Positions 45,673 to 51,600 of a stretch of DNA of 64,000 bases are shown here, piece by piece. The first letter of the stretch is position 1. Each line of letters opens with the position of its first letter. Source of the DNA: Podarcis pityusensis (taxonomy: Eukaryota); assembly GCA_964106645.2 (NCBI GenBank), contig OZ067047.1, one strand, 5' to 3'. A program made the position numbers.

Positions 45673-48600
45673 AAATGATTCAAACTTAAATTATCTGATA
45701 TGTCTGGATATAAGGATACAAATGTGCTCTGAATAAATGATGGAATTATACTTCTGACATTAGTAGAGGATCTCAAGCTGTGGCAGTATTCAGTTATCTT
45801 CATAGTGCAACATCTGGTGGGTTTCCTGCCATGCAAATCTCATGAAACCTCTGCATTAAATTTAGTTGTAAGTGCACACTAGACTGAGACCTCATTGTTG
45901 TGAAACAGAATGAGAAATCATGCAAATTCATTAAAAGCTGAGAAATCCAGTGAGAAAACGTCTGTGTTTCTATATGCCTCTTCCCTCTAATTCCCTACAT
46001 GTCCAGTTCCTTCTTCCACTCTACCTCAGAGTCCAATAAGAGATGCCCCCAAATTCTTCACAACCTCTACTAAGAACATGGATTAAATCCTTGCATGCAG
46101 AGTTTGCTTCATCTGCATGCCAATGGAAGGTTCCGGGTGTTATTGGTTCCAACATTCTAGAATGCTGAACTAAGAGCACTCAGAACCTTCCACTGACACG
46201 CACATCTAGCAAAACTCTGCATGCGGCTTATAAGTAGTGGTCCTCAACATCAGTGATGGGGCAGGCCCAGTCCATATAGTATACAGGTATGGCTAGCAGA
46301 GGGCTACCAGCATAAACCAGTCACCTCATTGGCCCTTGTGGATTGCTAGAGGCCTCCGAATAGGCACTGCACTAGTCCTATGGAAACAAGTCCATCTCAC
46401 TTCCTTGCTCATCACACAGCAGTACATGACATGGCAGTAAGTCATGGGTGCAGAGAGAGAGAGACAACTGGAGTGCCTCAGGGTCCCAGAAGGCTAGGGG
46501 CCCTTTACAGTCATCTGATGCAGATGAAGGAAGCATTGTGACCTATGCTCAGTTAGTGTATCATACTTAGATGGGCATTTGGCTAATGGAGTACTGTGTC
46601 AAGCAGCTTTGGCTTTCTTCTTAAAATTAAAAAAGACTCAAAATTGTGGCACATAAAAAAGCACCTTGAACCAATTTACATGAAAGTTCTGGAAAATCTA
46701 TTTTGGCAAATGACATTACCAAAGAATGCTCAGTTGCATCCTCATGTTGCTTGCATTAGATGAGCGAGCGTACCTTTATTAAACTGAAACTGGTCAAGAA
46801 TGAGCTGGGCAGCTTTTTTTTTCTGTGCTAAATCCCAGGAAAATTCCAAGCCAGAATGGAATTAATGATGGGTGAAGCCAGAGTCAAATGTGATCAGAAC
46901 TTCCCCTTTTTTTCTCTCTTACATGGGCATGGCCCAACCCCAAGACATGGGGTCTTATCCCTGATCTCACACTGCATCTTTGAGACGGAGTCAATACAAA
47001 AAAGGAGCACTTCCCCCCATTGTCCTCCATCTAGGAGCCAAGAAGAAATGGCAAGCACAAGTTGGCTTTCGCTGCCTATGTTCCTGACAGTTGGTTGGAG
47101 CTCCGAGGCAAAGTGTGGCATAATGGTTAGTGTGTGTTGGACTATGACCTAGGAGGCCAGGGTTTGAATCCTCCTCACCCAGCCATGAAGCTCACTGGGT
47201 GACCATCTCTTAGCTTAACCTACCTCACAGGGTTGCTGTGGGGATGAAATGGGGAGGGGAGAACCATGTACACCAAATTGAGCTTCTTGGAAGAAAATGG
47301 TGCTATATAAACGTAATAAATAATAATAAATAAGAGAAAGGCTGGGAGATGGGCAGCACATGCTCTTAGGCTCCTTCAAGCAGTGCTTCCCTATGATCTC
47401 ACCCCACCCAGCCAGTCATTACAAAGGGTAAGATTGGGGGAGCCAGGGCATGAGTGATATTCAGCCACCAGCTGAATATCCAACCAACAACCCAGTGTTT
47501 TCCCATTGAAGTGATAGGGCATAACCTAAGTTCTACTACAGGGCAAGAAAGCCTTAACCACCTTATTATGCTCTCAGCCAAAAGTGAGCTTGCTAGGCAA
47601 ATTTCTTTGACAATTTCAATAGGCTCATGAGAAATGAAAGCAAGGAAGGAGCCATTCAAGTTGGCCAACTGTGTAAGTATCAGGTGATTCTTTAAATGCT
47701 GTATTAAAGCAACATTTTGTTTGAATTGTGAGAATGTTTGATCGTTTCTGCTCTTCATTTTAGTGAGCATACCGTTTATAAATAATATGGTTATTTGTAA
47801 TTTCCTAAGGTTGTACAATATTCCTTTTTACATTTCAGTAAAGTAAGTTAGATAAAGCAGATTAAATTAACTAACAACCACGAGTGCCAGTTCACGAGAT
47901 AGACAAACCATTTGCCTACATAGCAAATTAAGCATTCGTGGTTATTAATAAATTTATAATAATCAAATACTACGTACTAAACTGTATAGTTATTATGCCA
48001 ATGTTCCATGTTACCCACTGGCAGCTGGGGGGGGCATGAGGACCCCAGGATGATGTTTTGCCCCACACCCCAGGTTACCCCTCTGCAGCCCTGCAATAGA
48101 GACCATGAACCCTCCTAACAAAAACAAGCACAACTGCACAGACATCGACTACCAGGGTCTCTACATTTTTGTAAGCCTCAGTTCAACTGATGATGAATAA
48201 AATGGACTCTCTCTCCCAAATTCTCACTTTAATAAAATGTCTTTTATTGACGATCTTGCCCAGCTATCATGTAGAATGATCAGATGAATTTGGTGCGTCA
48301 TTGCTTGCAGTCATGCTATGGTGGTACGTACATATCGGGTGCATTCGCAAAGTGTGGTTGTGGGTGCCTGTTGCTGGGACGAATTAATATGAGAGGGAAG
48401 AGGTGGCTCTTATAAGTTGGCAAGAAGCCAGCGGATCAGTCCACACTGAGGCCTTTTCCCCATCGCTTCCTCCATCTGCACTCTTTCGAGGTACCTCATT
48501 ACTCTCTGAAGGATATCTCCCACGCTGTAGCCCTTCTTGGTTGCCTTCTGAGCCAGCCGTGGAAGATCAGCCAGCTCTCCTTCTCTGTCATTTAAGAATG

Positions 48601-51600
48601 TCAGGTTGGGCACATTGAAGTGAGAAGCCACCATCCACTGGAGGACAGCCTGGAGCTCTTTGTTCAGTGAATCGCTTTCGCCATTCTGGTTAGTCACGAT
48701 CACCCCATTCGGACCCATTTGCCTCATATTAGCTCTTACTAGGGAAGCTCTCCTCGGCACTCCTAAATGTTGGGATGAACCACTGTATTGCTTATGTGAT
48801 GTGTCGCCACTGGCTAAGTTGGAGCCATTGCCCCCAGTCTCTAAGAGACACAACTTGGTCATAGACTTCACCAGTTGGTCAATATCCAGCATCTCCATAG
48901 GGTCCATGTTGCCATACATCTCCCATGGATTCGCATTTTGTTTTGCAACAGCCTTTATCCTCTGGGGCCTGCTTTCAGGAGGAGGGGCCTGTCGGTGGCC
49001 CCTGTTTGTGTTGCTGGAATTGTCTTCTGCATTGGAAACAGCTTCACGCATCACCTTCTGGATGGTTGACGAGAGGATACTTGTAAGATCTTCCTTTCTA
49101 GGTTCTTGGTGTTGAGGTTGGTGTTGAGGTTCCTGCCGCCCCCCTCGTCTCGAAGGGCTAAGGTTCGGGAACTTGGAGCCCATGCTTCCCGTTCCCCTCT
49201 CAAAATTAGTATCGGGGCGATTGAAGCCAAATGAAGAACTACTTGGCTTAGGAGCTCCACCATGCTTGCTTTTGTCCAATAGCTGCTTCTGTATCTTCGT
49301 TAATGCACTATCGATAATGTGTTTTGCACATTCATCCATTGAAATGAGCTTTTCTAGACATTTGCTTCCAGAGGGATGAGGCTCTGTCTGTCGGCTTCCC
49401 TTTTCCTTTCCATGGCTATACATTTTGCTGTTCTGATTGCTGGAGCTGTTCCGATGACCTTGACAGACTCAAGATGTTGTCTCCTCTCTCAGCTTTCTGT
49501 GCTTTTCTGCAGGCCCCTGGTGAATACTCATGTGTGGACAATGCCGTTTCCATGGTGGCAATGACATCATAAAGCACCAGTGTATTAACCAGCAGCTTGT
49601 GATTTGCCAGCTATGCCTTGGCAAGATATTGCTTTGCAATGTTCAAGTTTAACTTGGTTCTCTATGTGTAGAGAACCTCAGGCCTTGGGTCTCCAAGCCT
49701 TGTCTGTCTGCTGCTTGGGACACTCCCCAAACCACACCTACTTTCCCCATGGCAATCTCCCCATGAACCCTGCTTCGCACTTTACTCAAGTATTTTTGCC
49801 TGGCTGGAATGTGTCTTTAAACTCTGATAATACTTTTTTGCTTTCCTGGATGGAAGATGGGAGGGTGGATGAGTTTGTGTAGAAACTAGTATACTATACA
49901 AAGGTAATATTCACTTAATAATACCTTAGCCCACTTTTGCTTCTGAACCCATTAACCACAGGCATCTGGCCCCTAGGGGTTGTACGGAAGGGAATGAGGT
50001 CTTTGGTCTGAAAAAATGCTCCCCGACCCCTGCTGTATAGCCATGTTCAAGAATGTGAAAATGGAGCATTTCACTGTTGGGGAAATTTGGAGAGGTGGAT
50101 GATCTGCCATAGCAGAACTTACCACTACCAAAAATAAAAAAATAAAAAATTGGCAATGGGCATAAGCCTCCCACTGTGATTTAGGAATCAGTGTCTTATC
50201 CCCAGGAAACAGAATTGTGAAAAATGCAGCTGGTTATATGGAAGTTTGTGTAAGGAAGTCTGTGCCTTTGGAATCATGTGTTAATGAAATTGTCATGTCT
50301 GTTATTTTATTAACATACTTTTATTTCAAGTGAGTTGAATAAAATTTAGGCAATGGTAGTTTTTAACTGTATAAAATATAAATGTATGATTGTACCAATG
50401 GGTTTCACTGAAAATCAGTTGAAATGTTTTGTTAGTACTGTACTCAAATAAATATATAACTTGTACACAGCATAAAGCAGCTCAACAGCTAAAGATGCTC
50501 AGTTAATTAATTGTTTTAGTTATTGTTATGTATTTTATGCATTGTTATGAAACTGCAGTGGCATCACTCTGACTTGATGAAGGGTGGCCTGTAAATTATA
50601 GAACTAAATCAGTCAGTCTGATCTAAATCAAGGAGAAGGGAGGCCCACGCAGATGATATGGGGCAACCAACCCATTTTATCACATTGTGGCTTTTTGCAG
50701 GCCACATTCAGAGGTAAGCACTCCATTCAAGAGGTGGGCCAAACAAACATTTGATGGACTAAAAATTTTAAGGAATTCTGTAGATTGTTCTTTCTCTGTG
50801 TGTAGATAGATTAGATATACAGACAGACAGACAGATAGATAGATGATAGATAGATGTGTGTTTTTTTTAATATGTTGTTTTCTGTTAACCTTACAGATGT
50901 AAAATGTTAAACACTGAGATCTCAAGACAATAATAACGAAGTATAATGGGCCCACCCTATAGAACAAGCAGATAGGCTGGAGCAGGTCTACAAATCTTGC
51001 TCAGTCCCATGCCTCTCTGGATGGCTTCCTATGTTCTAATCAAGCAGGATATAAGGACATATTATCTTCTCCCATCACACACACACACAAATGCCTTTTA
51101 CGCAAATGTAAACACACAGAGGGCTCTTTCTCCATTGTGACAGATCCCGAGCAAGGGAATTCTAATTGCCATGCTGCACTGCCTATTAATAATTTTATTT
51201 TGCAGCAGGGATAGGGGCAAATGTCCCTGACAGTTGATCTTCTACCATCTACAGCCTCTATAAATATATTTTGGGCTGTGGGAAACCTTTAAAAAGCGCT
51301 AACAGCATTAGCACACTTTTCACTCCAAAGAGCTCTTTGAGAATGCTGCCAATTTCACTGGGATCCGAAGCTATAGCATAGTGGTTAACTTTGCTACGCA
51401 GAGCACTGAGAACTGTTATCAAGCAGCACTACTGCACACTGAACAAACTTGTTCTTAGCGAATATGCCTTTAGCAGCACAACATGTGGTTAAGGAAAGAT
51501 TTGCATTTTATTCCTATAGGGGCTGATTAAAAAAAGAGAGACACAACAGCAATTTTCTCAAGACTTGTTTGTGCGGTCCAGAGTATGGAAGGACTTAGCA

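What the first reader, a model, noticed from the sequence alone, without database searches (positions are those of the whole stretch)
48243..49471. N-terminally truncated, apparently intron-lacking AKAP3/4 paralogue with an intact C-terminal ORF
Seen: a 337-codon ORF with clear AKAP3/4 C-terminal motifs ending in WLLANL*. It is closed upstream by TGA (49469-71), starts at an ATG with A at -3, and has a downstream AATAAA but no genomic A-tract. Its one visible indel is frame-preserving, a 12-nt tandem at 49106-49129 in the QHQPQHQ stretch. Recalled knowledge: mammalian AKAP3/4 are ~850 aa, bind PKA through N-terminal-half helices, and have an intron just before the last ~50 codons (..QLEK^LPQV..). 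Here the equivalent ELAD-LPRL is continuous. Inference: this is an old retrocopy or intron-loss duplicate that kept only the C-terminal fibrous-sheath assembly domain. It could act as a PKA-blind structural or dominant-negative AKAP in squamate sperm tails.
Basis: partly seen in the sequence, partly recalled or inferred. Interest (0 to 1): 0.75.

Follow-up and report, generated by a model that had tools for sequence, protein, structure and literature searches.

The report
Short AKAP4-like sperm-tail gene of lizards
This is a real, intact, single-exon gene for a half-length relative of the sperm-tail scaffold protein AKAP4; lizards and snakes in general carry it and databases already list it, but no paper found here describes it.

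Summary
A 337-codon ORF lies at 48413-49423 (-), with stop 48410-12, an in-frame TGA at 49469-71, AATAAA at 48243-48 and a perfect 12-nt tandem at 49106-29. Its C-terminus matches Pfam AKAP_110 (E 1.7e-24).

It is not a one-off relic. Orthologues of 322-341 aa with the same start and end occur in lacertids, Rhineura, Varanus, Pogona, Python and geckos, most named "A-kinase anchor protein 4-like". The Podarcis raffonei protein differs by one residue. They form one clade (100/100) within lepidosaur "type A" AKAP4.

Full-length paralogues (about 680 and about 790 aa) match only this ORF in the 64-kb window. Where contig lengths are listed, they lie on other contigs.

The protein starts at an internal Met of the ancestral protein. 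It lacks the N-terminal half, which holds the Pfam RII-binding helix. It keeps three conserved helices and a compact C-terminal domain.

Three aberrant gene models place the ancestral last intron after ..ILQEVM, not at ELAD-LPRL. The ORF is continuous at both sites.

Best reading: an ancient, selectively retained, probably 5'-truncated retrocopy that serves as a fibrous-sheath subunit without the mapped PKA anchors. Origin, expression and function are inferred. A second, shorter (about 200 aa) squamate paralogue also exists.

The parts
48413..49423 (-). Coding sequence of the 337-aa AKAP4-like short paralogue ('S337'), in one uninterrupted exon
   Evidence: ORF. Orthologues of 322-341 aa. Clade support 100/100.
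48410..48412 (-). TAA stop codon
   Evidence: The ..WL.ANL end is shared by 12 of 13 full-length orthologues; one reads GNL.
49469..49471 (-). In-frame TGA closing the frame 16 codons upstream of the ATG
   Evidence: Sequence. The stretch between it and the ATG is purine-rich and has no polypyrimidine tract, so a coding splice acceptor there is unlikely (read directly from the sequence).
49424..49592 (-). Conserved 5' flank (5'UTR and/or promoter). It is not homologous to the parental coding sequence
   Evidence: the N-terminal extension of P0010 (a distant orthologue whose frame stays open upstream) aligns to 49592-49398 in another frame, E 3.6e-10; paralogue homology stops at 49429.
49562..49569 (-). 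CRE-like octamer TGATGTCA, about 140 nt upstream of the ATG (a lead only)
   Evidence: Sequence. It lies within the stretch conserved with P0010. The CRE consensus is recalled and no chance estimate was run.
49265..49339 (-). Conserved amphipathic helix, residues 29-53 (..MDECAKHIIDSALTKIQKQLLDK..)
   Evidence: Predicted helix with pLDDT about 87-91. K43, I44 and Q47 are invariant; D30, C32, A33, I36, I37, D38, A40 and L41 are at least 90% conserved among 15 orthologues. It is homologous to ..YAKDLIVTALMLIQQHLL.. of the full-length proteins.
49106..49129 (-). Perfect 12-nt tandem duplication adding PQHQ, specific to lacertids
   Evidence: family D8. Present in the window, Podarcis muralis, P. 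raffonei, P. lilfordi and Lacerta agilis, and absent in the other orthologues.
49034..49087 (-). Conserved helix, residues 113-130 (..SILSSTIQKVMREAV..)
   Evidence: S115, L117, S119-R126 and A128 are invariant.
48845..48883 (-). Conserved helix, residues 181-193 (..IDQLVKSMTKLCL..)
48413..48706 (-). C-terminal AKAP_110 domain, residues 240-337, predicted as a compact beta-alpha-beta-alpha-alpha-alpha fold
   Evidence: Pfam hit. In the model, residues 251-337 have block-mean pLDDT 70-95. Domain-only model (pLDDT 79, pTM 0.73).
48494..48499 (-). Inferred position of the ancestral last exon-exon junction (ATG AG|G, between 48495 and 48494), continuous here
   Evidence: Models P0025 (turtle) and P0015 (gecko) break after ..ILQEVM and continue with S. 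P0024 breaks after ..ILQE. This is an inference; no parental gene structure was seen.
48243..48248 (-). AATAAA polyadenylation signal. The 3'UTR would be about 165-185 nt
   Evidence: Sequence. No genomic A-run follows it.

Best explanation
The ORF is a functional, single-coding-exon gene for a 337-aa paralogue of the sperm fibrous-sheath scaffold AKAP4, truncated at the N-terminus.

Origin. It arose from the lepidosaur 'type A' AKAP4 gene before the radiation of living squamates. The most likely route is a 5'-truncated retrocopy of a germ-cell mRNA that landed on another chromosome and picked up a new 5' flank. It has been kept by purifying selection ever since.

Protein. It begins at a Met that is internal in the ancestral protein. 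It therefore lacks the pro-region and the N-terminal half, which carries the PKA-tethering helices. It retains three conserved amphipathic helices and the compact C-terminal AKAP_110 domain.

Inferred role, not shown. It is made in spermatids and built into the fibrous sheath alongside the full-length AKAP4 paralogues. It would add scaffold mass or partner-binding helices without adding the known PKA anchoring sites.
For: Real and conserved gene:
- 14 of the 23 hits are orthologues at 64-99% identity.
- 12 of the 14 aligned are 329-339 aa with the same start (M-Y/F-..GKEKG) or, in P0010, the same Met preceded by an open frame. 13 of the 14 run through to the shared ..WL.AN(L/F) C-terminus; only P0015 departs before it. 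P0012 and P0014 are shortened at the N-terminus.
- Named species: Podarcis muralis, Rhineura, Varanus, Pogona, Python, Gekko kuhli and Sphaerodactylus, plus P. raffonei, P. lilfordi and Lacerta agilis.
- The window protein differs from P. raffonei XP_053261635.1 at one residue.
- In the tree the clade has 100/100 support, a long stem (0.73) and short internal branches. Its topology groups Podarcis with Rhineura, and Varanus, Pogona and Python together.
- For the same species pairs, identity is 73-86% in this gene against 83-91% in the full-length paralogue.

Truncated, not mis-assembled:
- All 11 full-length relatives used in tblastn match only 48413-49429. No other hit has E below 0.25 anywhere in the 64 kb.
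- There is an upstream in-frame stop.
- Met1 aligns with the Met of ..LKSE-M-HG.GRDK.. in full-length proteins.

Derived from type A:
- Like the squamate 680-aa forms, the turtle 790-aa forms and tuatara, it lacks a segment of about 35 aa. That segment is present in the squamate 790-aa forms, the second turtle gene, most crocodilian forms and Sorex AKAP4.
- It groups with tuatara, the 680-aa clade and the 200-aa clade at 93/89.

Dispersed:
- Judged by listed contig lengths, the 680-aa and 790-aa genes share a contig in 4 of 4 species that list both (Rhineura, Python, Hemicordylus, Candoia).
- The short gene lies on a different contig from them in Rhineura, Python, Varanus and Gekko kuhli.

No intron at the inferred ancestral junction.

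Loss of mapped anchors:
- Pfam RII_binding_1 hits the N-terminal half of Sorex AKAP4 (E 2.3e-4), the turtle protein (0.05) and Podarcis full-length AKAP4 (0.087).
- It hits nothing in the short protein's helix at E up to 10.

Fold: helices 29-53, 113-130 and 181-193, and a confident C-terminal domain.
Against: - No expression or protein evidence was available. Testis expression and fibrous-sheath location are inferred from the family.
- No DNA of orthologues or paralogues could be fetched. dN/dS was not computed and the parental intron was not seen directly. Its position rests on three aberrant gene models.
- Classic retrocopy marks are absent or doubtful. There is no A-run after AATAAA. The only flanking direct repeat is 13 of 14 nt, at 48103-16 and 49761-74, and it may be chance.
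- Paralogue homology ends almost exactly at the start codon (49429 against ATG at 49423). That would also fit a DNA duplication starting at an exon boundary. One turtle model (P0023) breaks at that very point.
- The branching order among the short clade, the 200-aa clade, the 680-aa clade and tuatara is unresolved. Short plus 680-aa has support 45/4. Short plus 200-aa as one clade is not rejected, p-AU 0.40.
- Named orthologues were not seen for every squamate family; for example, no named Anolis hit appeared.
Confidence: 0.6

Rival explanations
1. Partial DNA-level duplication. The last part of the large exon plus the last exon were copied as DNA, perhaps starting at an exon boundary or internal promoter. 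The last intron was lost later and the copy moved to another chromosome.
For: Homology to the paralogues begins within two codons of the ATG. A turtle model (P0023) breaks at the same ..MKSE| point. No poly(A) relic. No convincing target-site duplication.
Against: It needs two further events, intron loss and dispersal, where retroposition needs one. The second truncated paralogue (about 200 aa) is also dispersed. The P0023 break may be a modelling artefact. From recall, the large exon of mammalian AKAP4 is uninterrupted at this point.
Confidence: 0.25
2. The short protein still docks PKA regulatory subunits, or related R2D2 proteins such as ropporin or CABYR, through helix 29-53. It would then be a minimal AKAP rather than a PKA-blind one.
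For: - The helix is among the most conserved parts of the protein and is predicted with pLDDT about 90.
- With A33 taken as position 2, residues A33, I36, I37, A40, L41, I44 and L48 fill 7 of the 8 hydrophobic-face positions. PMC12083921 (passages read) lists those positions as 2, 5, 6, 9, 10, 13, 14 and 17 for anchoring helices.
- The full-length type A proteins have YA at positions 1-2 of the homologous helix. That paper links the YA motif to RI anchoring.
Against: Pfam RII_binding_1 gives no hit at E up to 10. A recalled anchoring-motif pattern matches once, and 11% of shuffles also give at least one match. Position 1 is Cys, not Phe or Tyr, and position 14 is Gln. From recall, deletion mapping in mouse AKAP4 found only two tethering sites, both in the N-terminal half.
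Confidence: 0.15
3. Non-functional processed pseudogene whose frame is open by chance.
For: It is truncated and intronless, and it sits alone in a gene-poor stretch. Of 363 other ORFs of at least 55 aa, none passed a Pfam cut-off.
Against: In one search, 13 of 14 orthologue models keep an unbroken frame to the shared C-terminus. They span lineages from geckos to snakes. Identity reaches 82-94% in the C-terminal domain. All indels seen preserve the frame.
Confidence: 0.03
4. Assembly or annotation artefact: the 3' exon of an ordinary full-length AKAP4 whose upstream exons were missed.
For: None beyond the general possibility. The window ends 14.5 kb upstream of the ATG.
Against: No N-terminal homology anywhere in the window. 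In-frame stop with no acceptor-like tract upstream. Independent assemblies and annotations of at least 10 named species give the same short protein. The same species also carry separate full-length genes.
Confidence: 0.02

Closest known systems
RefSeq 'A-kinase anchor protein 4-like' of lacertids (Podarcis raffonei XP_053261635.1, 337 aa; P. muralis XP_028603174.1, 339 aa; Lacerta agilis XP_033019218.1, 341 aa)
   Same: The same gene. There is 1 residue difference from P. raffonei, and 98-100% rounded identity to the other lacertid proteins. Start, stop and the PQHQ duplication are the same.
   Different: The exact window protein is not in the collection. These records are automatic annotations, and I found no paper that discusses them.
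Squamate full-length AKAP4 'type A' (about 680-695 aa; for example Podarcis muralis P0048, 682 aa)
   Same: Residues 402-682 align with the whole short protein at 43% identity. Both share the deletion of the segment of about 35 aa, the three helices and the C-terminal domain.
   Different: The full-length form has about 400 additional N-terminal residues. These include the weak RII_binding_1 match at 157-174 (E 0.087, below Pfam's cut-off) and the ..LMVYANQVASDMM.. helix. It lies on another contig, next to the 790-aa paralogue. It evolves more slowly.
Mammalian AKAP4 (AKAP82/FSC1), represented here by Sorex fumeus P0072, 846 aa
   Same: Same Pfam family. The C-terminal 319 residues align at 33% identity. 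Both end in ..WLLANL.
   Different: The mammalian protein is full length and has a significant RII_binding_1 hit at 207-225. It has the extra segment of about 35 aa. From recall, it has a cleaved pro-region, two mapped PKA tethering sites and an X-linked multi-exon gene.
Squamate ~200-aa AKAP_110 C-terminal paralogue (Podarcis lilfordi CAI5767568.1 = P0017; Gekko kuhli P0024; Sphaerodactylus P0081)
   Same: It is also a dispersed, N-terminally truncated derivative of the same lineage. Its clade has 100/100 support and a stem of 0.68. It has an AKAP_110 match, E 6e-21.
   Different: It keeps only the third helix and the C-terminal domain, at 47% identity to the nearest short-gene orthologue. 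It lies on yet another contig. A common origin with the 337-aa gene is neither shown nor rejected.
Expressed 5'-truncated retrogenes of germ-line genes (general class; recalled)
   Same: Intronless coding region, location away from the parent, a new 5' flank, and a parent that is abundant in spermatids in mammals.
   Different: No poly(A) relic or clear target-site duplication survives. The parental intron is inferred, not seen.

Membership tests
AKAP110 family (Pfam PF05716 AKAP_110; AKAP3/AKAP4/SPHKAP) | Significant match to the AKAP_110 profile | tested here: met
   86.6 bits against a cut-off of 25, E 1.7e-24. Residues 240-337 match profile 593-690 of 690.
AKAP110 family, full-length AKAP4 architecture | N-terminal half (profile positions about 60-300, pro-region) | tested here: not met
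   Only the last 98 profile positions match. tblastn with 11 full-length relatives finds no N-terminal part in the window.
A-kinase anchoring proteins (functional class) | Recognisable R-subunit binding amphipathic helix (Pfam PF10522 RII_binding_1) | tested here: not met
   No hit at E up to 10 for residues 25-60. No RII_binding_1 hit at E up to 0.1 for the whole protein. Controls: Sorex AKAP4 2.3e-4, turtle 0.05, Podarcis full-length 0.087. HMMER filters can drop weak matches.
A-kinase anchoring proteins (functional class) | Hydrophobic-face spacing of an anchoring helix, and actual binding to the RI/RII docking domain | tested here: inconclusive
   Spacing is met at 7 of 8 positions for helix 29-53. 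The recalled pattern matches in 11% of shuffles. Binding is not testable here because no R-subunit sequence was at hand.
Squamate short AKAP4-like orthologue group (about 335 aa) | Falls inside the clade and shares start, stop and length | tested here: met
   Clade 100/100, with the window sister to P. muralis at 100/99. Alignment.
Processed retrogene | Lacks introns that the parent has in the copied region | tested here: inconclusive
   The ORF is continuous across the junction inferred after ..ILQEVM. No parental gene structure could be read because no squamate genome DNA was available.
Processed retrogene | Poly(A) remnant at the 3' end | tested here: not met
   No A-run downstream of AATAAA. 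Loss is expected for a very old copy.
Processed retrogene | Flanking target-site duplication | tested here: inconclusive
   The only flanking pair is 13 of 14 nt, at 48103-48116 and 49761-49774, and it may be chance.
Processed retrogene | Located away from the parent gene | tested here: met
   Indirect, from the contig lengths listed with the proteins. It lies on a different contig from the full-length genes in Rhineura, Python, Varanus and Gekko kuhli. No paralogue is present in this window.
Pseudogene | Disabling mutations or neutral decay | tested here: not met
   The ORF is intact here and in the orthologues, and all indels are multiples of three. dN/dS was not computable.

The most novel reading that the evidence does not exclude
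Squamates turned the spermatid AKAP4 message into new genes, once or twice, by 5'-truncated retroposition. The results are a 337-aa and a roughly 200-aa protein, each kept since before the crown squamate radiation. These anchor-less AKAP4 'tails' would be lineage-specific building blocks of the squamate fibrous sheath. They would tune the number of PKA-anchoring sites per unit of scaffold and could underlie the peculiar squamate sheath architecture. A further, weaker possibility is that the AKAP_110 C-terminal domain is a remote structural relative of the C-terminal part of the PARG macro-domain fold.
Probability: 0.3. Interest if true: 0.65.

Novelty: new variant of a known kind. Interest (0 to 1): 0.45.

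Why it matters
AKAP4 is the main scaffold of the vertebrate sperm fibrous sheath and is needed for motility in mice (review PMC11276731, passages read). The short gene has been kept across squamate lineages from geckos to snakes. It retains only the C-terminal half and drops the N-terminal half, where Pfam finds the RII-binding helix in full-length relatives. That makes it a natural separation-of-function experiment. It indicates that the C-terminal helices and the AKAP_110 domain have a selectable role of their own, whether in assembly or in partner binding. It also shows that the reptile AKAP4 family is richer than the single gene usually assumed: two tandem full-length types plus two truncated dispersed copies in squamates. 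This matters when 'AKAP4' is used as a marker or as a candidate gene in reptile reproduction studies. An example is the gecko testis EST in PMC4795608, whose paralogue identity is unknown.

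Tried and rejected
- Homodimer of the C-terminal domain (complex prediction). The job ran and was collected. Verdict: no answer (score 0.06, mark 0.32). It counts neither way.
- Fold searches against the PDB. Neither the whole model nor the domain-only model gave a hit at E up to 0.001. 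The only recurring similarity is to the PARG catalytic domain (see Noticed in passing).
- Sequence profile of the family against PDB chains: 0 hits at E up to 10.
- ESM Atlas by features for residues 236-337, leaving out PF05716: the best named clusters are AKAP14/AKAP28 at 0.78-0.79, below the level that means anything.
- Pfam scan of 363 stop-to-stop ORFs of at least 55 aa outside 24000-29300. No neighbouring cellular gene was found. The only other hits were two sub-cut-off chance matches (DUF5970 and Imp-YgjV). Exons shorter than 55 aa were not scanned, so synteny stays unknown.
- Target-site duplication search: nothing convincing.
- Recalled anchoring-helix pattern: one match, 11% of shuffles do as well, so it is a lead only.
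- Clade tests: the order of origin of the two short paralogues stays unresolved. The test of the three squamate clades as one group excluding tuatara did not finish and was not resumed.
- Literature: no paper on a short squamate AKAP4 paralogue, and none that gave the AKAP4 exon map.
- No spliced model had to be joined. The coding sequence is one exon and was searched as such.

Full report
**Observation**

The minus strand carries an ATG-started ORF of 337 codons at 48413-49423, with a TAA stop at 48410-48412. From the sequence:
- There is an in-frame TGA at 49469-49471, 16 codons upstream of the ATG.
- The start context is aaaATGt.
- AATAAA sits at 48248-48243, and no A-run follows it.
- The stretch ..EGELADLPRLAQ.. 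is uninterrupted.

The 12-nt tandem is two perfect copies at 49106-49129. The frame is 352 codons from stop to stop. The longest other frame outside a retroelement is 183 aa. The C-terminal 98 residues match Pfam AKAP_110 at 86.6 bits, E 1.7e-24, on profile positions 593-690 of 690.

**What it is**

A search among proteins of similar length returned 23 hits. They fall into three groups:
- 14 are orthologues at 64-99% identity.
- 7 belong to a second, shorter family of about 190-210 aa.
- 2 are aberrant models of full-length genes.

Named orthologues come from Podarcis muralis (99%), Rhineura floridana (86%), Varanus komodoensis, Pogona vitticeps and Python bivittatus (74-76%), and from Gekko kuhli and Sphaerodactylus townsendi (67%). 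The 90% cluster of the P. muralis protein also holds P. raffonei, P. lilfordi and Lacerta agilis. The window protein differs from P. raffonei XP_053261635.1 at a single residue, so the window is from a lacertid lizard close to Podarcis.

In the alignment, the orthologues share the start M-Y/F-..GKEKG and the end ..WL.ANL. The exceptions are two N-terminally short models, one gecko model with a wrong C-terminus, and one sequence (P0010) whose frame happens to stay open upstream. The extra PQHQ encoded by the 12-nt tandem is present only in the window and the four lacertids. It is therefore a lacertid-specific, frame-preserving duplication.

**Relation to full-length genes**

A search among longer proteins returned 49 hits. 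They include:
- squamate proteins of about 675-721 aa (41-47% identity);
- squamate proteins of 688-798 aa, mostly about 780-800 (37-41%);
- turtle AKAP4 of about 770-790 aa (43-45%);
- a second turtle type of 760-824 aa;
- tuatara (763 aa);
- crocodilians;
- Sorex AKAP4 (33%).

I ran tblastn with 11 of these against the window. All 11 matched only 48413-49429, and nothing else had E below 0.25. The N-terminal half is therefore absent from the 14.5 kb upstream and from the rest of the window.

The family alignment shows two things. First, Met1 of the short protein is the Met of ..LKSE-M-HG.GRDK.. in the full-length proteins. Second, the short protein lacks a segment of about 35 aa (..AEKV.EHI.KEG..). 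The squamate 680-aa forms, the turtle 790-aa forms and tuatara lack it too. The squamate 790-aa forms, the second turtle type, most crocodilian forms and Sorex AKAP4 have it. I call the form without the segment 'type A'.

**Tree**

I built a maximum-likelihood tree of 66 rows on the shared columns, rooted on Sorex. I left out seven rows: the partial or mis-modelled P0014, P0015, P0021, P0023, P0024 and P0073, and the fused P0025. The main results are:
- The short clade has 100/100 support (13 rows, stem 0.73).
- The roughly 200-aa clade has 100/100 support (6 rows, stem 0.68).
- The squamate 680-aa clade has 100/99 support (stem 0.19).
- These three plus tuatara group at 93/89.
- The order inside that group is unresolved. 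Short plus 680-aa has support 45/4. Short plus 200-aa as one clade is not rejected, p-AU 0.40.

Within the short clade, Podarcis groups with Rhineura. Varanus, Pogona and Python group together. Rows that share a gecko-specific 2-aa deletion branch outside both. The gene therefore predates the split of geckos from other squamates. From recall, that split is roughly 200 million years old.

**Selection**

I could not fetch any orthologous DNA, so dN/dS is not computed. The indirect evidence is strong:
- Frames are unbroken across all sampled lineages.
- All indels are multiples of three.
- The C-terminal domain is 82-94% identical across the clade.
- For the same species pairs, identity is 73-86% in this gene against 83-91% in the full-length type A gene.

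The gene evolves faster than its parent but is clearly constrained.

**Origin**

Contig lengths are listed with the proteins. By those lengths, the 680-aa and 790-aa genes share a contig in 4 of 4 species that list both (Rhineura, Python, Hemicordylus, Candoia). The short gene sits on a different contig in Rhineura, Python, Varanus and Gekko kuhli. The roughly 200-aa gene sits on a third contig in Gekko kuhli and P. lilfordi. This inference rests on contig lengths only, and the Python scaffolds are small.

Where the parent's last intron lies could only be inferred from aberrant gene models:
- The 1080-aa Chelonoidis model P0025 is two tandem turtle genes fused. The join is right after ..GDILQEVM and continues with Ser.
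- The Sphaerodactylus model P0015 departs at the same residue, also with Ser.
- The Gekko model P0024 departs two residues earlier.

A Ser after Met is what a phase-2 donor ATG AG| would give. In the window this site reads ATGAG|GTACC and is continuous (48499-48491). I could not check mammalian exon maps. Two literature searches did not yield them.

Retrocopy hallmarks are weak. There is no A-run, and the only flanking direct repeat is 13 of 14 nt. Decay is expected at this age.

The 5' flank is unrelated to the parental coding sequence. It is nevertheless conserved with the distant orthologue P0010 over about 170 nt, in another frame (E 3.6e-10). This indicates a constrained UTR or promoter that is contiguous with the coding sequence. 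It contains a CRE-like TGATGTCA at 49569-49562, which I note only as a lead.

Taken together, a 5'-truncated retrocopy is the simplest origin (about 0.55-0.6). A partial DNA duplication followed by intron loss remains open (about 0.25).

**Protein and likely mechanism**

AlphaFold2 with the 66-row family alignment gives a mostly disordered chain (mean pLDDT 62) with four ordered parts:
- a confident helix at 29-53 (pLDDT about 90);
- a weaker helix at 113-130;
- a weaker helix at 181-193;
- a compact C-terminal domain at 241-337 (block-mean pLDDT 70-95 over residues 251-337).

The domain alone folds with pLDDT 79 and pTM 0.73. These four elements are also the conserved blocks of the alignment.

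Pfam's RII_binding_1 model hits the N-terminal half of Sorex AKAP4 (E 2.3e-4, above the cut-off). It hits the turtle and Podarcis full-length proteins weakly (0.05 and 0.087). It does not hit the short protein's helix at E up to 10.

The short protein has therefore lost the region that carries the recognised anchoring helix. From recall, the two tethering sites mapped in mouse AKAP4 both lie in that N-terminal half.

'PKA-blind' is not proven, however. Take A33 as position 2 of helix 29-53. Hydrophobic residues then fall at positions 2, 5, 6, 9, 10, 13 and 17. PMC12083921 (passages read) gives positions 2, 5, 6, 9, 10, 13, 14 and 17 as the conserved face of anchoring helices. The homologous helix of type A full-length proteins starts with YA, a motif that paper links to RI anchoring. 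The supplementary helix logos of that paper were not seen.

A recalled pattern matches this helix once, but 11% of shuffles match too. I give about 0.15 to retained docking of R subunits or R2D2 proteins.

The most likely role is a spermatid-expressed fibrous-sheath subunit. It would co-assemble with the full-length paralogues through the conserved helices and the C-terminal domain. This is inferred from family membership and conservation only. Review passages (PMC11276731) state that AKAP4 binds AKAP3, FSIP1 and FSIP2 and is needed for the sheath in mice. A gecko study found an 'Akap4' EST raised in active testis (PMC4795608, passages read), but which paralogue it represents is unknown.

**Comparison with the known, and novelty**

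By sequence the protein is a member of the AKAP110 family. It is orthologous to RefSeq 'A-kinase anchor protein 4-like' entries, so the gene itself is already in databases. It does not meet the tested sequence criterion for an A-kinase anchoring helix.

I found no paper on it:
- 'A-kinase anchor protein 4-like' gave 0 papers.
- AKAP4 with squamate, lizard or snake gave 2, 9 and 11 papers. By title and abstract in the listings, none was about a short paralogue.

I rate it a new variant of a known kind, of moderate interest.

**Limits**

- No squamate genome DNA, transcript or proteome data could be reached.
- Exon structures, dN/dS, synteny and expression therefore stay unchecked.
- Neighbouring genes were not identified. 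Of 363 other ORFs of at least 55 aa, none passed a Pfam cut-off.

Noticed in passing
window 24373-29262 (+): A very young LTR retrotransposon. Two 300-nt direct repeats, 100% identical, lie at 24373-24672 and 28963-29262. They flank an open 1405-codon frame at 24735-28949 (stop at 28950-52). That frame has protease (below Pfam's cut-off), RVT_1, RNase H, integrase zinc-finger and rve domains, so it is Ty3/gypsy-like. The frame contains a short internal duplication (..VAYFSQTLNT.. twice). GC is 0.54-0.58 against about 0.42 around it.
   Followed up: partly
not in the window; proteins P0016-P0020, P0022, P0024, P0078-P0081: A second truncated squamate paralogue of about 187-251 aa, which keeps only the last helix and the AKAP_110 domain. 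Named members are Podarcis lilfordi, Gekko kuhli and Sphaerodactylus townsendi, and 8 are unnamed. Its clade has 100/100 support with a long stem. None of its named records carries an AKAP4 name.
   Followed up: partly
not in the window; proteins, alignment: Sauropsids carry two full-length AKAP4 types, apparently in tandem. One lacks a segment of about 35 aa (..AEKV.EHI.KEG..) and one has it, as mammalian AKAP4 does. The 1080-aa Chelonoidis abingdonii entry P0025 is a fusion of the two neighbouring genes. Alligator lists three forms on one contig.
   Followed up: partly
window 48413-48718 (-), residues 236-337: The C-terminal AKAP_110 domain model resembles the C-terminal part of the PARG catalytic (macro) domain. 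TM-score normalised to the query is mostly 0.59-0.68 (0.47-0.51 for two of the listed hits), rmsd 2.2-4.9 A over 57-101 columns, probability up to 0.63. Foldseek E-values are only 1.5-6. Pfam PARG_cat_C gives weak hits (E 0.037-0.11) on the same domain in 3 of 5 family proteins scanned. A sequence profile against the PDB and the ESM Atlas give no support.
   Followed up: partly
window 49562-49569 (-): A CRE-like octamer TGATGTCA lies about 140 nt upstream of the ATG. It sits inside the roughly 170-nt 5' flank that is conserved with a distant orthologue. It might mark a spermatid-type promoter. The CRE consensus is recalled, and no chance estimate was run.
   Followed up: no
window 1-64000: The region is gene-poor. 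Apart from the AKAP4-like ORF and the retroelement, none of the 363 stop-to-stop frames of at least 55 aa passed a Pfam cut-off.
   Followed up: yes
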